Assembly: GCA_046704565.1 (NCBI GenBank)
Contig: JBJKRP010000148.1
Location: 1 to 56,709, forward strand
Source of the DNA: Ignavibacteriaceae bacterium
GTDB taxonomy: Bacteria; Bacteroidota; Ignavibacteria; Ignavibacteriales; Ignavibacteriaceae
Reading direction: 5' to 3'
Length of the DNA stretch: 56,709 bases
This document shows positions 7,262 through 17,587 of the stretch, in pieces. The notes under the pieces are model-generated. The model ran no database searches. It was given only the letters and a program-made list of their open reading frames with translations, and was not told where the DNA came from. The stretch's first letter is position 1. Every line of letters begins with the position of its first letter. Position numbers and translations under genes: made by a program.

Positions 7262-7290
7262 TTGACAAATTTTTTCGAAGGATGTATATT
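7262..7290 (+). promoter_or_regulatory. Sigma-70-type promoter of groESL
   Basis: TTGACA (7262-7267), a 17-nt spacer, then TATATT (7285-7290). The -10 element abuts the CIRCE element. Confidence 0.5.
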
Positions 7291-7315
7291 AGCACTCGCT
7301 TTTTGAGAGTGCTAA
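7289..7315 (+). promoter_or_regulatory. CIRCE operator (HrcA binding site)
   Basis: Perfect TTAGCACTC-N9-GAGTGCTAA inverted repeat, 41 nt upstream of the groES ATG. Confidence 0.85.
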
Positions 7316-7355: not shown

Positions 7356-7652
7356 ATGGCAAAAATTAATTTAAAGCCGCTGGCTGACAGAGTAATAGTA
7401 AAGCCAAGCGAGGCTGAAGAAAAGACAAAGGGCGGAATCATACTGCCGGATACGGCAAAGGAGAAACCAATAGAAGGAACCGTTGTTGCAATCGGTCCTG
7501 GCAAAACAGCAGATGACGGAAAGGTTGTTAAGCCGGAAGTAAAAGTCGGCGATAAAGTTTTGTACGGCAAGTACAGCGGTACCGAAGTCACCGTTGAAGG
7601 TGAAGAGTATTTAATTATGAGAGAAAGCGACATTTTCGCTATTATCGGTTAA
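7356..7652 (+). CDS. groES: Co-chaperonin GroES
   Basis: 98 aa; [12 protein letters not shown]...[13 protein letters not shown] mobile loop; AGGAGG RBS. Confidence 0.97.
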
Positions 7653-7692
7653 TCAGATAAGCCAAAGGCTTACAAGGAATTTAATAAACTAA

Positions 7693-9345
<1,653 letters not shown>

Positions 9346-9428
9346 AAAGTTTAAGCTTGCCATACGAAGCTTTAGCGGGTATGGATCAAGACTAACTTTA
9401 AGAACAGGAACAGTACATTCTTTTCATA

Positions 9429-9460
9429 AGGCGGAAGTAATATTCCGCCTTTTTATTTTT
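9429..9460 (+). terminator. Intrinsic terminator of groESL
   Basis: Stem AGGCGGAA / TTCCGCCT with a 7-nt loop, followed by TTTTATTTTT. Confidence 0.7.
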
Positions 9461-9640
9461 AAATCTCGAAAAAAAAATAGTTTACATTGAAATTTTAACG
9501 CTTTGCTCCATGCCTCCAGAAAACTATCCCAATTTTTCTACCTATGACATAAAATATTTTGTGCAAAACATCATAGTGTCAAAAACTATTATTTCATTAC
9601 TTCGTGCCGCACTTATGTTTAATATTTACGGAGATACTAT

Positions 9641-10204
9641 ATGTTGAAGAAACAGGTGTTAGTATTGTTTGCGGTTCTGTTTATTACTGCTTTTATAAAA
9701 GCGCAGGGTCTATATTTAGGACCGCAGGTCGGATGGCAGAAAGCTTCAAGCGCTGACGACGGCAAATTCATGTTCGGTGCTGCCGTTAGAATTAAGCTTT
9801 CCGACGCATTAGGCGTAGAAGGCTCTATCAATTACAGACAGGAAAATTATAACAACGGAAACGTAACAGTTACAAGCTACCCGGTAATGGTTACAGGAAT
9901 GATTTATCCAATAAGCATAGTTTACGGCGCTATTGGATTCGGCTGGTATAATACTTCGATTGCCTACTCGCCTTCACTCCATCAATTGGGAATAACTGAC
10001 CAGACCGAACAAAAGGTCGGATGGCACTTCGGCGCCGGAGTTGAGCTTCCGCTAAGCGGCTCAGTCAGTTCCCCAAATACTATTCTGACTGCAGATATAA
10101 GATATGTCTTTTTAAATTATGATTTCCAGCAGTTTCCCGGTTCGGGTAATCTGAAAAGTGATTTTATTGTACTTACAGCCGGGTTGCTCTTCAACCTTGA
10201 ATGA
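9641..10204 (+). CDS. Small outer-membrane beta-barrel protein
   Basis: Signal peptide MLKKQVLVLFAVLFITAFIKAQ, alternating amphipathic beta-strand pattern, and aromatic-rich strand ends. Confidence 0.55.
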   Translation: MLKKQVLVLFAVLFITAFIKAQGLYLGPQVGWQKASSADDGKFMFGAAVRIKLSDALGVEGSINYRQENYNNGNVTVTSYPVMVTGMIYPISIVYGAIGFGWYNTSIAYSPSLHQLGITDQTEQKVGWHFGAGVELPLSGSVSSPNTILTADIRYVFLNYDFQQFPGSGNLKSDFIVLTAGLLFNLE

Positions 10205-10475
10205 ACATCTCGGCTGCGGAACTTCAACTTAATAAAAAGAAGTTTCTAAATGCTCATAATGTTTTGCCGGTAAACAGGTATAGTGCAAATCGTACGCCTT
10301 ATGCCTGTATACCGGTATACCTTAGCCATCTTAAAATAAATATATCCCGGCACATTTAAATTAAAGTTTGTACGAATACAGGCTCCCCTTTATTCCTTTC
10401 ACAATAAATTGCTATATTGTATATCAATTGAAGAAAATATTTTTGTGAAGAGAATCTTACAGTGGAGAATAATAT

Positions 10476-13400
10476 TTGACGCCCGAAGAGCTCGATGATT
10501 TACTAAAGGAAGCTTACGAACATCTGAGGCAAGGCAGATACCGCATGGCGTTAACTGCCGCCAAACAAGTTTATGATGAGAGGCAGTACGATTACAACGC
10601 AGCCTCTTGTTTAGCTTGGGCGCTGCTGGAAAACGGTTATCCCTCCCAGGCGCTTGAGATGGCAAATCTTGCAGTGCAAATAAGCGGAGAAGACGTAAAC
10701 TCCAGGTTGTACCGCGGCTTTCTTTTAATGAGGATGAGCATTTTTGATGGTGCAATTTCGGACCTCGACTGGGCAATCAGGAAGAAGCCGGACCAGCTTG
10801 TTTGGGCACATCTAAATAAAGCAAGAGCACTGGGAGGATTGGAAAGATTCTTTGAAGGTCTTGAAGAAATTAATAAAGCAATCGAGATTGATAAAGGCGA
10901 AACACAAAAGCTATCAAAAATCAGGGACTGGTTTAGAAAAACTCTCGGATATGACGAAGGATTTTTCAGCGGAATCTTTTCAAAGAAAAGATCTTTAATG
11001 AAAGAAGGCGAAGAAGCTCTCGGCGATAAGGAAGCGTGGTTTTCTCTTTGGGTTGCAAGAGATACTCTTAACACACCTTCATTAAAGGATGAACATGAAG
11101 ATGCTCATTTATTGGAGCTGAAATCATTATTAGAAATGTTCCAGATCAAAAATGCTTTTCAGAAGGCTGAGTCTGTAAAGGCAATTTTGCAGGATGATGT
11201 TCGTTTTAAGGCTCTGTATGCTAAAATCCTTAAGCAGTACAGCGGCGAACCCTCAGAAATATTTGAGGAAGAATTAATTGAGCCAGTCCAAAAACGCACT
11301 GATGCCGAAATTTATGAAAACAAACTTTTTCACGTTTACCAGGTTAAAACTTACGACTTAATTGAAAACCTGAGAGCAGGAAAGAGAACTTATCTGTTAC
11401 AGTTCAGCGAAGAGACAATCCGTTATATAGGAGTTGAAATTGTTCTTGACAATCCATTTTCCGGGAACAAGAGCATTGATGTTGAAGGCACCGCAATCTG
11501 GTATTTGAACGAAGCCGAGGTAGGTCAGCATCATTTTACGCTTGGAATGGAGAAAGACTGGAAAGTTGTTGAGTTTGTTCAAAGCTGGGGAACCGAGAAG
11601 CCGGGCTTCTGGAAGGAAGGTCAAGGGAAGGTTGATATATATTTGGACAACTATCTCGTTTGCAGCCGCTGGTTCCTGGTAGGTCAATCAGAGATTTTTA
11701 ATTTCGAAGAAGCTCAGGTTCATCTTGATGAATCGGAGCCGCTTGAAAAGCCGGTTACAGAACAGCCTACCGAGGTGAGCTCATCTTCCTTAAAGCCGCA
11801 GGAAGAAAAATCCCTTGAAGAATTATTGGCTGAGTTAGATACTTACATCGGTCTGCAAGGCGTAAAACAATCGATGAGAGACTTTGTCGATTATTTAAAA
11901 TTTCTAAACGAAAGAAAAAAGCTTGGATTAAAGACGCAGGAAAGCTTCAGCGTTCATTCTGTATTCCTCGGTAATCCGGGAACCGGCAAGACATCAATTG
12001 CGCGTTTGCTTGGTAAAATTTTTAAGGCAATGGGGCTTCTTAAAAACGGACATGTTATTGAGGTCGACCGCTCCGGTATTGTTGGGCAGTACATCGGCGA
12101 GACGGCGCAGAAGACCAACAAGGTAATTGACGAGGCAATCGGCGGACTTCTATTCATAGATGAAGCTTACATGCTGAAGAAAGAGGGTAACGCCCAGGAT
12201 TTCGGTCAGGAGGCAATCGACATTTTACTGAAGCGAATGGAAGACGGCAAGAGTGAGTTTGCTGTTATTACCGCCGGTTACCCGGAGGAAATGAATTCAT
12301 TCATCAATTCAAATCCCGGACTGAAATCGCGCTTCAGCCATTTATTTAATTTTGATGATTACACGCCCGAAGAACTCGTGGAAATCTTTAAGCTCTTCGC
12401 GGACAGAGAAGAATACTCAGTGCATGAACAGGCATTAGAAGCCCTGAAAAAACAGTTCACCAATCTTTACAGGAAGAGAGACAAATCGTTCGGCAATGCA
12501 AGACTTGTTAGAAATTATTTCAACGAATCTAAAATCCATCTCAGCAAGCGCTATTTGAAGATACCCGAAAATGAGCGCAACAAAGAATCGATGACAACTA
12601 TTCTAAACGAAGATGTTCTTGCAATTATTCAAAGCGGAGGAATTAAAGATGCAAAGATTGGAATTGACGAAGAAGCTTTGACCAAGGCGTTAAACAAACT
12701 AAATAACCTAATCGGTATGGAGCCGGTAAAAAAAGAAATAAACGAGCTTGTGAAGCTGGCAAAATTTTATTCCGAGCAGGGCGAGAATCTTCACGACAAA
12801 TTTTCTTCACACATAATTTTTCTCGGGAACCCGGGAACCGGAAAGACGACGGTTGCCAGGCTCTTCAGCGAAATTTATTCTGCGCTCGGTATTCTACCAA
12901 AGGGACATCTTGTTGAAGTGGACCGGCAGGGCTTGGTTGCAAGCTTTGTCGGACAAACTGCGGAGAAGACAAAAGCAGCAATAGATAAGGCAATCGGCGG
13001 AACGTTGTTTATAGATGAAGCATACACTCTGATCAAATCGGGCGAAGGCAGCGGAGCGGATTTCGGCAAAGAAGCGCTTGATACTCTTCTTAAAAGAATG
13101 GAAGACGACAGGGGAAAATTTGTTGTAATTGCTGCGGGCTACACAAATGAAATGAACAGCTTCATCAACTCGAACCCGGGGCTTCAATCCCGCTTTACAA
13201 AAAGAATATTCTTTGAAGATTATTCACCGGAAGAACTGATGCAGATAACCGAAAATCTTTTTGAAAGCAAAGGACATATTCTTGACGAAGAAGCACGTGA
13301 GCCGTTAAGAAAATATTTCAACAAGATCTACCGCAGCCGCGATAAGACATTCGGAAATGCAAGGCTTGTTCGAGACCTGGTAGAAAGCACGTTGAAAAAC

Positions 13401-14357
13401 CAGATGCTTCGCGTTGCCGACATTCCGTCGGAAGAACGCCATGAGGAAGTACTAAAGTATATCCTTACTGAAGATGTAAGCAGTTTAATCGAACGCAAAA
13501 AGGAAAAGCAATCTGCAAAGATCGAAGGCGACCCGGAGCTTTTAAATAAATACTTATCTGAATTATCACAACTACCTGGTCTTGAATCTGTTAAAAAATC
13601 GGTTGAAAAACTTATAAGTAGCTTGAAGGTGGCAAAGCTCCGGAAACAGCGGGGGCTGAAAGTTATTCCCAAAAATTTAAATTCTGTTTTCACCGGAAAT
13701 CCGGGAACAGGTAAAACAACCGTTGCAAGATTGCTGAGCAAAATTTATAAGGAGCTTGGAATTATAGAAAAGGGGCACTTGATCGAAGTAGACCGCTCAA
13801 ATTTAGTTGCGGGCTACCAGGGGCAGACGGCATCAAAAACAAACGAAGTGATCAATAAATCACTCGGCGGTACTTTGTTTATCGACGAAGCCAATACCCT
13901 TATCCGCGGCATTTCGGATTTTGGTCAGGAGGCGGTTGATACACTTCTAAAAAGGATGGAAGATGATCACGGCAAGTTTGTGGTTATTGTTGCCGGCTAT
14001 ACTGATGAGATGAAAGATTTTCTAAATTCTAATCCGGGTGTTGAATTAAGATTTCCTAATATTTTTAATTTTGAAGATTACACTCCGCGGCAAATGCTGG
14101 AGATTGCAAATATTATAAGCGAAAAGAACGGCTACAAGCTTGATGAAGGCGCATGGCAGCTTCTCCTGGAAATCTTTACGGACTTATACGACAGGCGTGA
14201 TAAAAGCTTCGGTAATGCAAGGACGGTAAAAAATATTTTATATAAGGCAATAAGCAACCAGGAAGAAAGAATCCTTACCCTGCTTAACCCGGATGATAAT
14301 GACCTGATGACTATTTCATTCGAAGATGTGGATAAGATTGAGTTGAATGAAATTTGA
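10476..14357 (+). CDS. TPR-repeat protein with three tandem CbbX/SpoVK-type AAA+ ATPase modules
   Basis: TTG start after a GTGGAGA RBS, with N-terminal TPR-like repeats. There are three Walker A motifs GNPGTGKT, at nt 11970, 12825 and 13695. Each is followed by GG(L/T)LFIDEA (Walker B), LLKRMED, (I/V)xAGY, NSNPGxxxRF and FGNAR. Confidence 0.8.
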   Translation: MTPEELDDLLKEAYEHLRQGRYRMALTAAKQVYDERQYDYNAASCLAWALLENGYPSQALEMANLAVQISGEDVNSRLYRGFLLMRMSIFDGAISDLDWAIRKKPDQLVWAHLNKARALGGLERFFEGLEEINKAIEIDKGETQKLSKIRDWFRKTLGYDEGFFSGIFSKKRSLMKEGEEALGDKEAWFSLWVARDTLNTPSLKDEHEDAHLLELKSLLEMFQIKNAFQKAESVKAILQDDVRFKALYAKILKQYSGEPSEIFEEELIEPVQKRTDAEIYENKLFHVYQVKTYDLIENLRAGKRTYLLQFSEETIRYIGVEIVLDNPFSGNKSIDVEGTAIWYLNEAEVGQHHFTLGMEKDWKVVEFVQSWGTEKPGFWKEGQGKVDIYLDNYLVCSRWFLVGQSEIFNFEEAQVHLDESEPLEKPVTEQPTEVSSSSLKPQEEKSLEELLAELDTYIGLQGVKQSMRDFVDYLKFLNERKKLGLKTQESFSVHSVFLGNPGTGKTSIARLLGKIFKAMGLLKNGHVIEVDRSGIVGQYIGETAQKTNKVIDEAIGGLLFIDEAYMLKKEGNAQDFGQEAIDILLKRMEDGKSEFAVITAGYPEEMNSFINSNPGLKSRFSHLFNFDDYTPEELVEIFKLFADREEYSVHEQALEALKKQFTNLYRKRDKSFGNARLVRNYFNESKIHLSKRYLKIPENERNKESMTTILNEDVLAIIQSGGIKDAKIGIDEEALTKALNKLNNLIGMEPVKKEINELVKLAKFYSEQGENLHDKFSSHIIFLGNPGTGKTTVARLFSEIYSALGILPKGHLVEVDRQGLVASFVGQTAEKTKAAIDKAIGGTLFIDEAYTLIKSGEGSGADFGKEALDTLLKRMEDDRGKFVVIAAGYTNEMNSFINSNPGLQSRFTKRIFFEDYSPEELMQITENLFESKGHILDEEAREPLRKYFNKIYRSRDKTFGNARLVRDLVESTLKNQMLRVADIPSEERHEEVLKYILTEDVSSLIERKKEKQSAKIEGDPELLNKYLSELSQLPGLESVKKSVEKLISSLKVAKLRKQRGLKVIPKNLNSVFTGNPGTGKTTVARLLSKIYKELGIIEKGHLIEVDRSNLVAGYQGQTASKTNEVINKSLGGTLFIDEANTLIRGISDFGQEAVDTLLKRMEDDHGKFVVIVAGYTDEMKDFLNSNPGVELRFPNIFNFEDYTPRQMLEIANIISEKNGYKLDEGAWQLLLEIFTDLYDRRDKSFGNARTVKNILYKAISNQEERILTLLNPDDNDLMTISFEDVDKIELNEI

Positions 14358-16584: not shown

Positions 16585-16917
16585 TCATTTACCGGCAATA
16601 ATTTTTCCGTCGACGACCGGCGTAACGCATATTATCGGATTCTGCGGCACCTTAAAGTTCTCAAAAATCTCCTCGAACAACTGGTACTGCATCCCCTGGC
16701 TTTCTAGCCTTGAGAACTTGGGATATTTCATAAATTTTCCCCGCTTGTTTTTAGGTGCACTAAAACGGTAGGATTTCTGAAAATCATCAACCGCTTTGCT
16801 TTTCAAAAATTTTATTTTGTTATCGTCTCCGCCTTCAATCTCATATGCAATTGCACGGAACTCGACGACATAACCTTCATTTATTATAAGATAGATATTC
16901 AGAATTATTTCATTCAT
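16585..16917 (-). CDS. Hypothetical protein
   Basis: 110-aa ORF that starts 5 nt after the stop of the upstream membrane-protein gene. No recognisable motif. Confidence 0.4.
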   Translation of the reverse strand: MNEIILNIYLIINEGYVVEFRAIAYEIEGGDDNKIKFLKSKAVDDFQKSYRFSAPKNKRGKFMKYPKFSRLESQGMQYQLFEEIFENFKVPQNPIICVTPVVDGKIIAGK

Positions 16918-16921
16918 AGAC

Positions 16922-17587
16922 TTACTTATTATTTACAAGAGCAAAATATGCCAGGCAGATTGCATATACAAATGCAAACTTGCATGTGATGCTTTCAATT
17001 ATCCCCAGCAATTGACCGCTGCCTGAAGCCCACAAAGCAAATGCAGCAATTACCGGGAGCGAAGTAAATAACAGACCCGACAGTAGTGTTTTTAAAAGTT
17101 TAACCCGAACCGCATCTGTCTGTCCGTTAATTTCAATTACGATCGAAATAATTGAAGCAGCAATCGGTGCGTAATAAAAGAAAGCATACCAGCCGCCTAA
17201 CGGGTAGTTGTAGGAGGCGTCAAGAACCGAACATGCGGTGACGGCAAATTTATCAATAACCAAGAAGTAATAAACAACAAATACAATTGCGGGGAGAAAT
17301 ATCATCTTTAGCAGCTTATTCCTGTAACCGGAATAATGAAAGATAAAATAAAAGTTCAACGGCGGCAGGAAAGAAATATCCGCAAAGGCAAGATAAGCCA
17401 TAAATGAATATCGTAATCTTAAAGTGCATATCATAAATTCAAGTGACTGGTAAACCGTGAGCAGCGCAATTAGAACGAATGCCATAACATTGTCTCCATT
17501 CTTCCGTGCAAAGATGAGCAAATTAATAAGAAGAATAAATTCCAGGCACGCAAGCAGAAGTGAAAGAAGACCGTCCCAATTAATCAT
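16922..17587 (-). CDS. Hypothetical polytopic membrane protein (6-7 TM)
   Basis: Continuous hydrophobic helices. No recognisable motif. Confidence 0.5.
   Translation of the reverse strand: MINWDGLLSLLLACLEFILLINLLIFARKNGDNVMAFVLIALLTVYQSLEFMICTLRLRYSFMAYLAFADISFLPPLNFYFIFHYSGYRNKLLKMIFLPAIVFVVYYFLVIDKFAVTACSVLDASYNYPLGGWYAFFYYAPIAASIISIVIEINGQTDAVRVKLLKTLLSGLLFTSLPVIAAFALWASGSGQLLGIIESITCKFAFVYAICLAYFALVNNK

What the first reader, a model, noticed from the sequence alone, without database searches (positions are those of the whole stretch)
10476..14357. 1293-aa protein with an N-terminal TPR array and three tandem CbbX/SpoVK-type AAA+ modules
The Walker A motif GNPGTGKT occurs three times (aa 499, 784 and 1074; nt 11970, 12825 and 13695), spaced 285-290 aa apart. 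Each copy is followed by the same ordered set of motifs: GxxVEVDRxxLV, GG(L/T)LFIDEA, LLKRMED, (I/V)xAGY, NSNPGxxxRF, and FGNAR.

This is an internal triplication of a complete AAA+ module, and all three copies retain Walker A, Walker B and arginine-finger-like residues. TPR plus a single CbbX-like AAA+ is the architecture of EccA in type VII secretion, and single modules occur in CbbX and SpoVK. Three in one chain would let a dimer build a pseudo-hexameric ring, which is unusual.

An additional region of about 280 aa with no recognisable motifs (aa about 170-450) sits between the TPRs and the ATPase array. There is no obvious partner gene, because the flanks are an OMP beta-barrel gene and a pullulanase gene.
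Basis: partly seen in the sequence, partly recalled or inferred. Interest (0 to 1): 0.65.

Follow-up and report, generated by a model that had tools for sequence, protein, structure and literature searches.

The report
Ignavibacterial TPR protein, three AAA+ motors
This gene encodes a real, conserved but unstudied protein of Ignavibacteria that joins a TPR and beta-sandwich "head" to three complete CbbX/SpoVK/EccA-type ATP motors; such multi-motor chains turn out to be common in databases yet none has been characterised, and the sequence pattern suggests the three motors stack as rings rather than pair up into one ring.

Summary
ORF 10476-14357 (+, TTG start) encodes 1293 aa with three complete CbbX/SpoVK/EccA-type AAA+ modules. 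They are 49-51% identical to each other, and every catalytic motif is present in all three.

The "motif-less" residues 170-450 resolve into a second helical repeat, an Ig-like beta-sandwich and a disordered linker.

The family is not rare. Full-length orthologues occur in 79 species-level Ignavibacteria genomes. Among the best 150 clusters in a 1.8-billion-protein library, relatives carry 2 to 8 such modules. None is characterised, and no solved structure has tandem modules of this type.

No single module reaches the curated CbbX, SpoVK or EccA cut-off, so this is a separate branch of that clade.

In different clades single modules have died, each losing its own ATP site and its own trans-acting arginine together, while neighbouring modules stay intact. 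That pattern fits like-with-like rings, meaning a hexamer of three stacked tiers.

groES-groEL lies upstream in 39 of 62 loci, always separated from this gene by a terminator.

The most likely role is a dedicated ATP-driven protein-remodelling chaperone. The client is unknown.

The parts
10476..14357 (+). Whole gene: 1293-aa TPR / beta-sandwich / 3x AAA+ protein, TTG start, stop codon included
   Evidence: full-length orthologues at 56-90% identity
10464..10467 (+). GGAG ribosome-binding site 8 nt before the TTG start
   Evidence: read from the sequence; GGAG is also present upstream of most orthologues
10482..10946 (+). TPR array, aa 3-157 (nine helices, about 4.5 repeats)
   Evidence: AlphaFold pLDDT about 90-98; Foldseek matches to OGT, MamA and PilF TPRs; weak Pfam TPR hits
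10998..11240 (+). Second helical-repeat (TPR-like) bundle, aa 175-255
   Evidence: five helices, pLDDT above 90; no Pfam hit
11304..11684 (+). Ig-like beta-sandwich domain, aa 277-403, with the family-specific motifs GVE(V/I)VxDNPF and WG(T/A/S)(D/E)xPGFW
   Evidence: eight to nine strands, pLDDT 80-95; invariant W, G and F columns; weak UNC119-like Foldseek match, TM 0.44-0.48; no Pfam or PDB sequence hit
11685..11810 (+). Disordered acidic/Ser/Pro-rich linker, aa 404-445
   Evidence: pLDDT about 50
11823..12686 (+). AAA+ module M1 (aa 450-737): Walker A at 499, pore-loop Tyr 539, Walker B DE 562-563, AGY, SRH Arg 619, sensor-2 Arg 676
   Evidence: SpoVK model 269 bits; CbbX PDB 3syk E 4.6e-59
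12687..13550 (+). AAA+ module M2 (aa 738-1025): Walker A at 784, pore-loop Phe 824, Walker B DE 847-848, AGY, SRH Arg 906, sensor-2 Arg 963
   Evidence: EccA1 PDB 9lur E 1.9e-50
13551..14354 (+). AAA+ module M3 (aa 1026-1293): Walker A at 1074, pore-loop Tyr 1114, Walker B DE 1137-1138, AGY, SRH Arg 1192, sensor-2 Arg 1249
7289..7315 (+). Perfect CIRCE operator (TTAGCACTC-N9-GAGTGCTAA) in front of groES. Context only, not part of the gene.
   Evidence: 0 mismatches; 0.01 expected by chance
7356..9345 (+). groES (7356-7652) and groEL (7711-9345): the most conserved neighbours of the family
9428..9461 (+). Intrinsic terminator after groEL. It separates the groESL transcript from the downstream genes.
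   Evidence: equivalent terminators in 21 of 22 adjacent loci

Best explanation
The gene encodes a cytoplasmic, ATP-driven protein-remodelling chaperone. It belongs to the SpoVK-EccA-CbbX clade of classical AAA+ ATPases and to a family specific to Ignavibacteria.

Proposed mechanism:
- The N-terminal TPR array, second helical bundle and Ig-like beta-sandwich select a dedicated client or adaptor.
- A 40-residue flexible linker tethers this head to three consecutive motor modules.
- I propose that six chains assemble so that each module type forms its own ring: M1 with M1, M2 with M2, M3 with M3. This gives a three-tier stack with up to 18 ATP sites and one continuous axial channel lined by the conserved pore-loop aromatic residues.
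- The client would be pulled on or partly threaded, as in CbbX acting on Rubisco, rather than degraded.

Shown:
- Domain anatomy.
- Intact catalytic residues and their conservation.
- Position-specific orthology of M1, M2 and M3.
- The module-wise degeneration pattern.
- Conserved position directly downstream of the CIRCE-controlled groES-groEL operon, as a separate transcription unit.

Inferred:
- Hexamer formation.
- The stacked topology.
- Threading.
- A role in protein quality control. The client is unknown.
For: 1. Clade membership. All three modules carry the clade's diagnostic features listed in PMC11513918. These are a two-helix hairpin before the Walker A strand, the GY sensor-1 signature, an Asn in NPG upstream of the SRH arginine, and the sensor-2 GNAR arginine, plus the AAA_lid_6 lid. 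The best structural match for the three-module model is CbbX, covering about one module: 3syl, 40% identity, TM 0.73-0.78.

2. Activity and pore. Catalytic residues and the pore-loop aromatic residue are near-invariant in M1 and M2 and mostly conserved in M3 across 63 and 183 family members. Characterised clade members are dedicated chaperones without peptidase partners (PMC11513918).

3. Homotypic rings.
- In six Ignavibacterium-clade genomes M2 and M3 are dead. M2 has Walker A GKNxAGQ and no Walker B, SRH Arg or sensor-2. M3 has Walker B NN/NY and SRH Arg replaced by Y or F. M1 keeps every residue, including its SRH arginine.
- In the L049/L051/L052 clade M1 is dead while M2 and M3 are intact.
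- Over 549 modules, 28 of the 33 that lack the SRH arginine also lack their own Walker A/B residues (odds ratio 175).
- In contrast, 27 intact ATP sites sit next to a neighbouring module that lacks the arginine, whichever direction is assumed (odds ratio 2.8). Those sites could not receive a trans arginine in a planar M1-M2-M3 half-ring, but they can from an identical module in another chain.

4. Module number. Relatives with 4 or 5 intact modules are common. Stacking accommodates any number; tiling a hexamer does not.

5. Age of the array. M1, M2 and M3 each group with same-position modules of other family members, so it is old and each position is individually maintained.

6. Context.
- groEL lies upstream on the same strand in 39 of 62 loci that have at least 5 kb of flank.
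- Overall it is present in 44 of 79 loci, against 21 of 79 for the next most conserved neighbour.
- The linkage holds down to 40% identity of the AAA+ protein.
- It also survives an in-place inversion of the gene.
Against: - No oligomer was modelled or measured.
- The AlphaFold monomer gives confident modules (pLDDT 83.6) but no confident relative arrangement (pTM 0.40, disordered linkers).
- Foldseek alignments to two-ring AAA+ proteins are poor: RMSD 12-20 A, TM 0.3-0.4. The stack is therefore not seen directly.
- Co-loss of cis and trans elements is also what a module turning into an inert spacer would show.
- The sequences are phylogenetically related, so the counts reflect a few independent events: at least two clear clades plus scattered M3 cases.
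- Family variants with two or three modules both divide six, which is compatible with a planar ring.
- The 8-module relative P0092 has exactly six intact modules, so single-chain rings may exist elsewhere in this group.
- The groESL linkage is positional only. A terminator follows groEL in 21 of 22 adjacent loci, no CIRCE precedes the AAA+ gene in any of 77 loci, and 23 of 62 loci lack the linkage.
- No client, adaptor or expression data exist. No sequencing run holding this stretch was found.
Confidence: 0.5

Rival explanations
1. Planar pseudo-hexamer. Two chains each contribute M1-M2-M3 head-to-tail to a single six-module ring, as dynein and midasin do within one chain.
For: - Three modules times two chains equals six.
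- Two-module family variants (M1-M3; P0249, P0256) could form trimers.
- Short linkers of about 11-14 disordered residues between the lid of one module and the first helix of the next could span neighbouring ring positions.
- The 8-module relative P0092 has exactly six intact modules.
Against: - In a head-to-tail ring each ATP site needs the SRH arginine of the adjacent, different module.
- Yet Ignavibacterium orthologues keep a fully intact M1 site and M1 arginine while both M2 and M3 have lost theirs.
- Another clade shows the reverse pattern.
- In total, 27 intact sites sit beside arginine-less neighbours.
- Relatives with 4 or 5 intact modules are common.
- AlphaFold gives no confident intrachain module packing (pTM 0.40).
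Confidence: 0.17
2. The modules do not form one closed machine. Each module oligomerises independently with modules from different sets of chains, giving open assemblies or networks. Or only one tier forms a ring and the others act as regulatory or nucleotide-sensing appendages.
For: - Long flexible linkers and low pTM.
- Individual tiers can be lost or silenced in evolution without loss of the gene.
- CbbX itself needs a ligand to assemble into hexamers (my recollection of the CbbX literature, not checked here).
Against: - Pore-loop aromatic residues and full catalytic sets are conserved in all three modules in most species. That argues that all three work as translocating rings where they are intact.
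Confidence: 0.15
3. It is a component of an anti-phage or conflict system, as proposed for other multi-module CbbX/SpoVK-type ATPases.
For: - Weak PADLOC hits to IetA (86.8 bits), TRIP13 and DolB models.
- Other tandem SpoVK-type ATPases sit in CoCoNuT extensions (PMC11090510).
Against: - The hits cover only the generic AAA+ core.
- There is no protease, nuclease or other effector neighbour.
- The gene is a stable, vertically inherited core gene of Ignavibacteria at a fixed housekeeping position beside groESL, not on a variable island.
Confidence: 0.05
4. It is an EccA-like secretion chaperone that prepares substrates for an envelope export machine of these diderm bacteria, for example type IX secretion.
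For: - TPR plus a CbbX-type AAA+ is the EccA layout (PMC11513918).
- Genes for Por_Secre_tail proteins and outer-membrane proteins occur near some orthologues.
Against: - The N-terminal region does not match the EccA model: only profile positions 266-553 match.
- There are no type VII genes nearby and no conserved secretion gene among the neighbours.
Confidence: 0.08

Closest known systems
CbbX (red-type Rubisco activase; PDB 3syl/3syk/3zuh)
   Same: - Each module has the same fold and motifs. Sequence match 3syk E 4.6e-59; Foldseek 40% identity, TM 0.73-0.78.
- These motifs are the pore-loop aromatic residue in VGQY(I/V)GxT, AGY, NPGxxSRF, FGNAR and the AAA_lid_6 lid.
   Different: - CbbX is one module of about 290-310 aa encoded with Rubisco genes.
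- Here three modules sit in one chain behind a 450-aa TPR/beta-sandwich head, with no Rubisco context.
- Per-module TIGR02880 scores are 208-240 bits against a cut-off of 459.
EccA (type VII secretion AAA+ ATPase; TIGR03922; EccA1 AAA+ domain PDB 9lur)
   Same: - An N-terminal TPR domain followed by a CbbX-type AAA+ module.
- Module match to 9lur with E 1.9e-50.
- EccA is regarded as a dedicated chaperone, not a protease partner.
   Different: - EccA has a single module.
- The N-terminal part of the EccA profile is not matched.
- Per-module scores are 231-244 bits against a cut-off of 467.
- The host is a diderm Ignavibacteria lineage with no T7SS genes nearby.
SpoVK (sporulation AAA+ chaperone of MurG; TIGR02881)
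   Same: - It is the best-scoring curated model for every module, at 265-273 bits.
- It shares the clade signatures.
   Different: - SpoVK is a single module with a short beta-alpha N-domain and is specific to sporulating Bacillota.
- The scores here are well below the cut-off of 423.
Type II stacked double-ring AAA+ machines (ClpA/ClpB/Hsp104, p97/Cdc48, NSF, Rix7, Drg1)
   Same: - Tandem AAA+ modules in one chain behind an N-terminal substrate or adaptor domain.
- The proposed like-with-like rings stacked along one channel.
- One tier can be catalytically silenced.
   Different: - Three tiers rather than two.
- All tiers are paralogues of the CbbX/SpoVK type.
- No structural superposition of the inter-module arrangement was obtained (TM 0.3-0.4).
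Single-chain ring AAA+ proteins (dynein, midasin/Rea1)
   Same: Several AAA+ modules in one polypeptide with some degenerate sites. This is the precedent for the planar model.
   Different: - Those proteins have six modules of a different AAA+ clade in one chain.
- Here there are three, and the degeneration pattern argues against heterotypic neighbours.

Membership tests
SpoVK-EccA-CbbX higher-order clade of classical AAA+ (as defined in PMC11513918) | Two-helix hairpin immediately upstream of the Walker A strand | tested here: met
   AlphaFold model: H8-17/H22-43, H293-304/H310-328 and H581-592/H598-619 precede the first strand of each module
SpoVK-EccA-CbbX higher-order clade of classical AAA+ (as defined in PMC11513918) | Conserved Tyr in sensor-1 (GY signature) | tested here: met
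   ITAGY, IAAGY and IVAGY in M1-M3. Y is present in 63/63, 63/63 and 49/63 orthologues.
SpoVK-EccA-CbbX higher-order clade of classical AAA+ (as defined in PMC11513918) | Conserved Asn upstream of the SRH arginine, plus a second (sensor-2) arginine | tested here: met
   NSNPGxxxRF and FGNAR are present in all three modules. The exact Asn-Arg spacing given in the paper could not be matched unambiguously.
SpoVK-EccA-CbbX higher-order clade of classical AAA+ (as defined in PMC11513918) | AAA_lid_6-type helical lid | tested here: met
   PF17866 matches three times, E 1.1e-46
CbbX (TIGR02880 equivalog) | A single module scoring above the curated cut-off (459 bits) | tested here: not met
   240, 208 and 211 bits for M1, M2 and M3. 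The whole-protein 647 bits is only the sum of three copies.
CbbX (TIGR02880 equivalog) | Encoded with Rubisco (cbbLS) genes | tested here: not met
   Neighbours are groESL, an OMP gene, a GH13 enzyme, fumarase and amt/P-II. No Rubisco genes appear in six related loci.
EccA (TIGR03922 equivalog) | Full-length match including the EccA N-terminal domain, above 467 bits | tested here: not met
   Only profile positions 266-553 are matched; 231-244 bits per module
EccA (TIGR03922 equivalog) | Type VII secretion gene neighbourhood | tested here: not met
   No ecc or esx-type genes in the window flanks or in related loci
SpoVK (TIGR02881 equivalog) | Score above 423 bits for one module; host is a sporulating Bacillota | tested here: not met
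   265-273 bits per module. The family was found almost only in Ignavibacteria genomes: 77 of 79 loci by record title.
Type II stacked multi-ring AAA+ (Clp/Hsp100, p97, NSF) | Tandem AAA+ modules that each form a homotypic ring, stacked coaxially | tested here: inconclusive
   Tandem modules are present. Homotypic contacts are favoured by the co-degeneration pattern. No oligomer model was made, and the monomer model has pTM 0.40 and poor superposition.
Single-chain or pseudo-hexameric planar AAA+ ring (dynein/midasin-like) | ATP sites completed by the arginine of the next, non-identical module | tested here: not met
   27 intact sites lie next to arginine-less neighbouring modules. M1 alone stays intact in the Ignavibacterium clade. 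This is indirect, evolutionary evidence.
IetA (IetAS anti-phage ATPase; PADLOC, NF042959) | Full-length model match and an adjacent IetS protease | tested here: not met
   54 bits against a cut-off of 510. The PADLOC hits are partial. No protease neighbour is present.

The most novel reading that the evidence does not exclude
This would be the first example of a three-tier AAA+ machine: a homohexamer with 18 nucleotide sites built from three stacked CbbX/SpoVK-type rings. It would act as a lineage-specific remodelling chaperone alongside GroEL/ES. It would also represent a large, overlooked class of multi-tier (2 to 8 module) AAA+ proteins in which whole tiers are switched off or deleted during evolution.
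Probability: 0.35. Interest if true: 0.65.

Novelty: new variant of a known kind. Interest (0 to 1): 0.5.

Why it matters
All characterised members of the SpoVK-EccA-CbbX clade are single-module hexamers, each serving one dedicated client (Rubisco, MurG, T7SS substrates). This protein shows that the same motor is widely deployed as chains of several intact modules, and nothing is known about the oligomeric geometry or clients of such chains.

If the stacked reading holds, it extends the one- and two-tier classification of AAA+ unfoldases to three or more tiers. Different Ignavibacteria clades have silenced different tiers, which gives a natural series for asking what each tier contributes.

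The fixed position next to the heat-shock groESL operon makes a proteostasis role testable in cultured Ignavibacterium album or Melioribacter roseus.

There is also a practical annotation point. Summed scores from three copies exceed the curated cut-offs of SpoVK, EccA and CbbX all at once, so whole-protein scoring would mislabel such proteins.

Tried and rejected
- **Literature.** Four full-text literature searches found no paper describing a chain with several CbbX/SpoVK/EccA-type modules. The two I opened, PMC11513918 and PMC11090510, say nothing about multi-module chains of this type; the latter mentions a CoCoNuT-associated SpoVK-family ATPase, compared there with two-domain CDC48.
- **PDB.** A sequence search found only single-module CbbX and EccA1.
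- **AlphaFold model of the three-module part.** It gave no confident inter-module geometry (pTM 0.40). Foldseek then matched only single CbbX modules well. Topology could not be read from structure prediction, and no multimer tool was available.
- **Beta-sandwich domain.** There was no Pfam hit even at E 5 and no PDB hit with a family profile. Foldseek gave only a borderline UNC119-like similarity, so I do not assign it a ligand.
- **Heat-shock control.** I looked for a CIRCE operator in front of the AAA+ gene in 77 loci and found none.
- **Co-transcription with groESL.** Rejected, because a terminator follows groEL.
- **Anti-phage reading.** Rejected, because the PADLOC hits are generic and there is no effector neighbour.
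- **ClpP docking.** I saw no IGF-type motif at the C-terminus or elsewhere when reading the sequence.
- **Sequencing runs.** None holding this stretch could be listed.
- **Whole-genome tools.** I could not check whether these genomes lack ClpB or carry paralogues.

Full report
**1. Observation**

The ORF at 10476-14357 (+) is 1293 aa and starts with TTG.
- GNPGTGKT occurs at aa 499, 784 and 1074, which is nt 11970, 12825 and 13695.
- Each copy is followed in the same order by GxxVEVDRxxLV, GG(L/T)LFIDEA, LLKRMED, (I/V)xAGY, NSNPGxxxRF and FGNAR.
- Pfam reports AAA x3 and AAA_lid_6 x3. The NCBIfam SpoVK, EccA and CbbX models each match three stretches.
- The three modules (aa 450-737, 738-1025, 1026-1293) are 49-51% identical to each other.

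The TTG start is supported by three observations:
- GGAG lies 8 nt upstream.
- Residues 4-23 are conserved in orthologues.
- TTG is the start of 48 of 79 orthologues by longest-ORF call.

**2. Anatomy of the N-terminal 450 residues**

An AlphaFold model built on 62 orthologues (pLDDT 85.3) shows five parts:

| Residues | Feature |
|---|---|
| 3-157 | Nine TPR-type helices |
| 175-255 | Second five-helix repeat bundle, after a short disordered hinge |
| 258-272 | Disordered stretch |
| 277-403 | Eight- to nine-strand beta-sandwich |
| 404-445 | Disordered acidic/Ser/Pro linker |

- Foldseek matches the helical part to OGT, MamA and PilF TPRs.
- The sandwich matches UNC119-type Ig-like sandwiches only weakly, at TM 0.44-0.48.
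- The sandwich has no Pfam hit and no PDB sequence relative.
- It carries invariant Trp, Gly and Phe positions.

**3. The motor modules**

Each module has the features that PMC11513918 uses to define the SpoVK-EccA-CbbX clade:
- a helical hairpin before the Walker A strand;
- the GY sensor-1 signature, an Asn upstream of the SRH arginine, and a sensor-2 arginine.

Structural and sequence relatives:
- The best structural relative is CbbX, at 40% identity and TM 0.73-0.78 per module.
- The only solved sequence relatives are single-module CbbX and EccA1.

Scanned one at a time against curated models:

| Model | Score per module (bits) | Cut-off (bits) |
|---|---|---|
| SpoVK | 265-273 | 423 |
| EccA | 231-244 | 467 |
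| CbbX | 208-240 | 459 |

- The protein is therefore a member of the clade but of none of the three named families.
- The whole-protein scores exceed all three cut-offs only because three copies add up.

Conservation across 63 orthologues:
- Walker A Lys, Walker B Asp-Glu, the SRH Arg and the sensor-2 Arg are invariant or nearly so in M1 and M2.
- They are somewhat relaxed in M3.
- The pore-loop aromatic residue (Tyr or Phe) is kept in all three modules.

**4. How common the architecture is**

- A word-indexed search returned more than 120 clusters of full-length orthologues at 56-90% identity. Every source name among them that gives a taxon reads Ignavibacteriaceae or Bacteroidota, and none gives a function beyond "AAA family ATPase" or "SpoVK/Ycf46/Vps4 ... 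TPR".
- A scan of species-representative genomes with two beta-sandwich motifs found 79 loci. All but two are labelled Ignavibacteria, Ignavibacteriales, Ignavibacteriaceae, Ignavibacterium, Melioribacter(aceae) or unclassified Bacteroidetes. The two exceptions are labelled Bacillota and Chlorobiaceae and may be binning errors.

An exhaustive HMMER search of 1.84 billion representatives with module M2 alone gave 10,727 proteins below 1e-30. Counting modules in the best 150 gave:

| Modules per chain | Clusters |
|---|---|
| 3 | 75 |
| 4 | 49 |
| 5 | 14 |
| 2 | 9 |
| 6 | 3 |
| 8 | 1 |

- The ranking favours proteins with many modules.
- About 14 of these clusters carry the beta-sandwich and belong to this family, including two-module forms.
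- Earlier notes of this scan independently describe many multi-module CbbX/SpoVK chains in other genomes as common but unstudied.
- Four full-text literature searches found no paper on multi-module chains of this type; the two papers I opened do not discuss such chains.

So the architecture is frequent in databases and uncharacterised.

**5. Age of the triplication**

- In a tree of 533 modules, M1, M2 and M3 each have as nearest neighbours the same-position modules of other family members.
- The second module of two-module variants groups with M3, meaning those variants lost M2.
- The triplication therefore predates the family's radiation, and each position is maintained separately.

**6. Ring topology**

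Structure prediction could not decide this:
- The modules are confident, but their arrangement is not (pTM 0.40, disordered linkers at aa 721-727 and 1008-1015).
- Superposition on two-ring AAA+ proteins is poor.

Comparative sequence data are more informative. In classical AAA+ rings the SRH arginine acts in trans on the neighbour's ATP site. This is established knowledge, and PMC11513918 reports dominant-negative arginine mutants of SpoVK. In a planar head-to-tail ring that neighbour is a different module. In stacked homotypic rings it is the same module of another chain.

- In six Ignavibacterium-clade genomes M2 has lost Walker A Lys, Walker B, the SRH Arg, sensor-2 and the pore loop.
- In the same genomes M3 has lost Walker B, the SRH Arg, sensor-2 and the pore loop.
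- M1 nevertheless keeps every catalytic residue, including its own SRH arginine.
- In another clade (L049, L051, L052; partly L055, L056, L059) M1 is degenerate while M2 and M3 are intact.
- Across 183 proteins (549 modules), 28 of the 33 modules without the arginine also lack their own Walker residues (odds ratio 175).
- By contrast, 27 intact ATP sites lie beside a neighbouring module that has no arginine, in either ring direction (odds ratio 2.8).
- Relatives with four or five intact modules are common, and these numbers cannot tile a hexamer.

Together these favour like-with-like rings, meaning a hexamer with three stacked tiers.

Caveats:
- The events are few and phylogenetically clustered.
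- A module becoming an inert spacer would also lose cis and trans elements together.
- Module numbers of two and three are both compatible with a planar ring.
- The 8-module relative P0092 has exactly six intact modules.

I put the stacked model at about 0.5 and the planar model at about 0.17.

**7. Genomic context**

In the window the gene follows this order:
- groES (7356-7652);
- groEL (7711-9345);
- a strong terminator (9428-9461);
- an OMP beta-barrel gene (9641-10204).

A perfect CIRCE operator sits at 7289-7315, before groES.

Across the 79 species loci:
- groEL lies upstream on the same strand in 39 of the 62 loci that have at least 5 kb of upstream sequence.
- It lies downstream and convergent in three more.
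- In an all-against-all clustering of neighbouring ORFs, groEL (44 loci) and groES (41) are twice as conserved as any other neighbour, the next best being 21.
- The linkage persists down to 40% identity of the AAA+ protein (Ignavibacterium).
- It tolerates inserted genes: an OMP gene, a 1010-aa BNR protein, and a 122-aa ORF.
- It also survives an in-place inversion of the AAA+ gene.

The linkage is not an operon:
- A hairpin plus T-run terminator follows groEL in 21 of 22 directly adjacent loci.
- No CIRCE-like site precedes the AAA+ gene in any of 77 loci.
- The linkage is absent in Melioribacteraceae and in several Ignavibacteriaceae lineages.

I take it as modest support for a proteostasis-related role, not as proof.

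**8. Function**

The best-supported reading is a cytoplasmic, dedicated remodelling chaperone:
- There is no signal peptide.
- The TPR/beta-sandwich head selects a client or adaptor.
- The motors pull on it through pore-loop aromatic residues, by analogy with CbbX, SpoVK and EccA. According to PMC11513918 this clade has no peptidase associations.
- No ClpP-docking IGF motif, protease, nuclease or secretion gene accompanies the gene.
- The defence-system hits are generic AAA+ matches.
- The client is unknown.

**9. Verdict**

- It is a new variant of a known kind: a three-module, Ignavibacteria-specific branch of the SpoVK-EccA-CbbX chaperone clade.
- It is interesting mainly because the multi-module design is widespread, unstudied and probably multi-tiered.

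Noticed in passing
window 7289-7315: A perfect CIRCE inverted repeat (TTAGCACTC-N9-GAGTGCTAA) lies 40 nt upstream of groES. This implies HrcA-type heat-shock control of groESL in this Ignavibacteria genome. It is the only such site in the 56.7-kb window.
   Followed up: partly
P0092 (2233-aa relative from a 1.54-Mb contig; not in the window): This protein has a zinc-ribbon N-terminus followed by eight tandem CbbX/SpoVK-type modules. The first and last are catalytically degenerate. The six in between are intact and alternate between two subtypes (LTGNPGTGKT and FTGNPGTGKT). It could be a whole hexameric ring in one chain.
   Followed up: partly
window 10380-10435 and the equivalent positions in L007-L011, L018, L020, L022, L023: A conserved AT-rich element, TTCCTTT(C/T)A-N3-4-AAATT(A/G)(C/T)TATATTG, lies about 45-95 nt upstream of the AAA+ gene's start in close relatives. 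It is partly palindromic (AAATTCCTTT / AAAGAAATT). It could be a promoter or an operator.
   Followed up: no
whole protein, window 10476-14357: Because three module copies add up, the whole protein exceeds the curated equivalog cut-offs of SpoVK (785 vs 423 bits), EccA (704 vs 467) and CbbX (647 vs 459) all at once. No single module reaches any of them. Whole-protein scoring would therefore mislabel multi-module AAA+ proteins.
   Followed up: yes
L042 and L043 (two contigs of one MAG, MFD02923.bin.3.6): The same metagenome-assembled genome carries two full-length copies of the family (66% identity to the window protein each). Some Ignavibacteria may therefore have paralogues, or the bin is mixed.
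   Followed up: no
L002 vs L004 (orthologous loci): Between these two genomes the AAA+ gene alone is inverted in place. Both flanks keep their order: groES-groEL on one side, and metallophosphatase / acetyl-CoA hydrolase / alanine dehydrogenase on the other.
   Followed up: partly
L009 13112-15575 and about 20 other loci: In about a quarter of the family's loci, an ABC-transporter ATPase and a 563-aa membrane protein lie directly downstream of the AAA+ gene on the same strand. This pair is absent from the window.
   Followed up: no
window 16585-17587 (- strand): Two adjacent ORFs of 110 and 221 aa, between the GH13 gene and fumarase, have no Pfam match.
   Followed up: no
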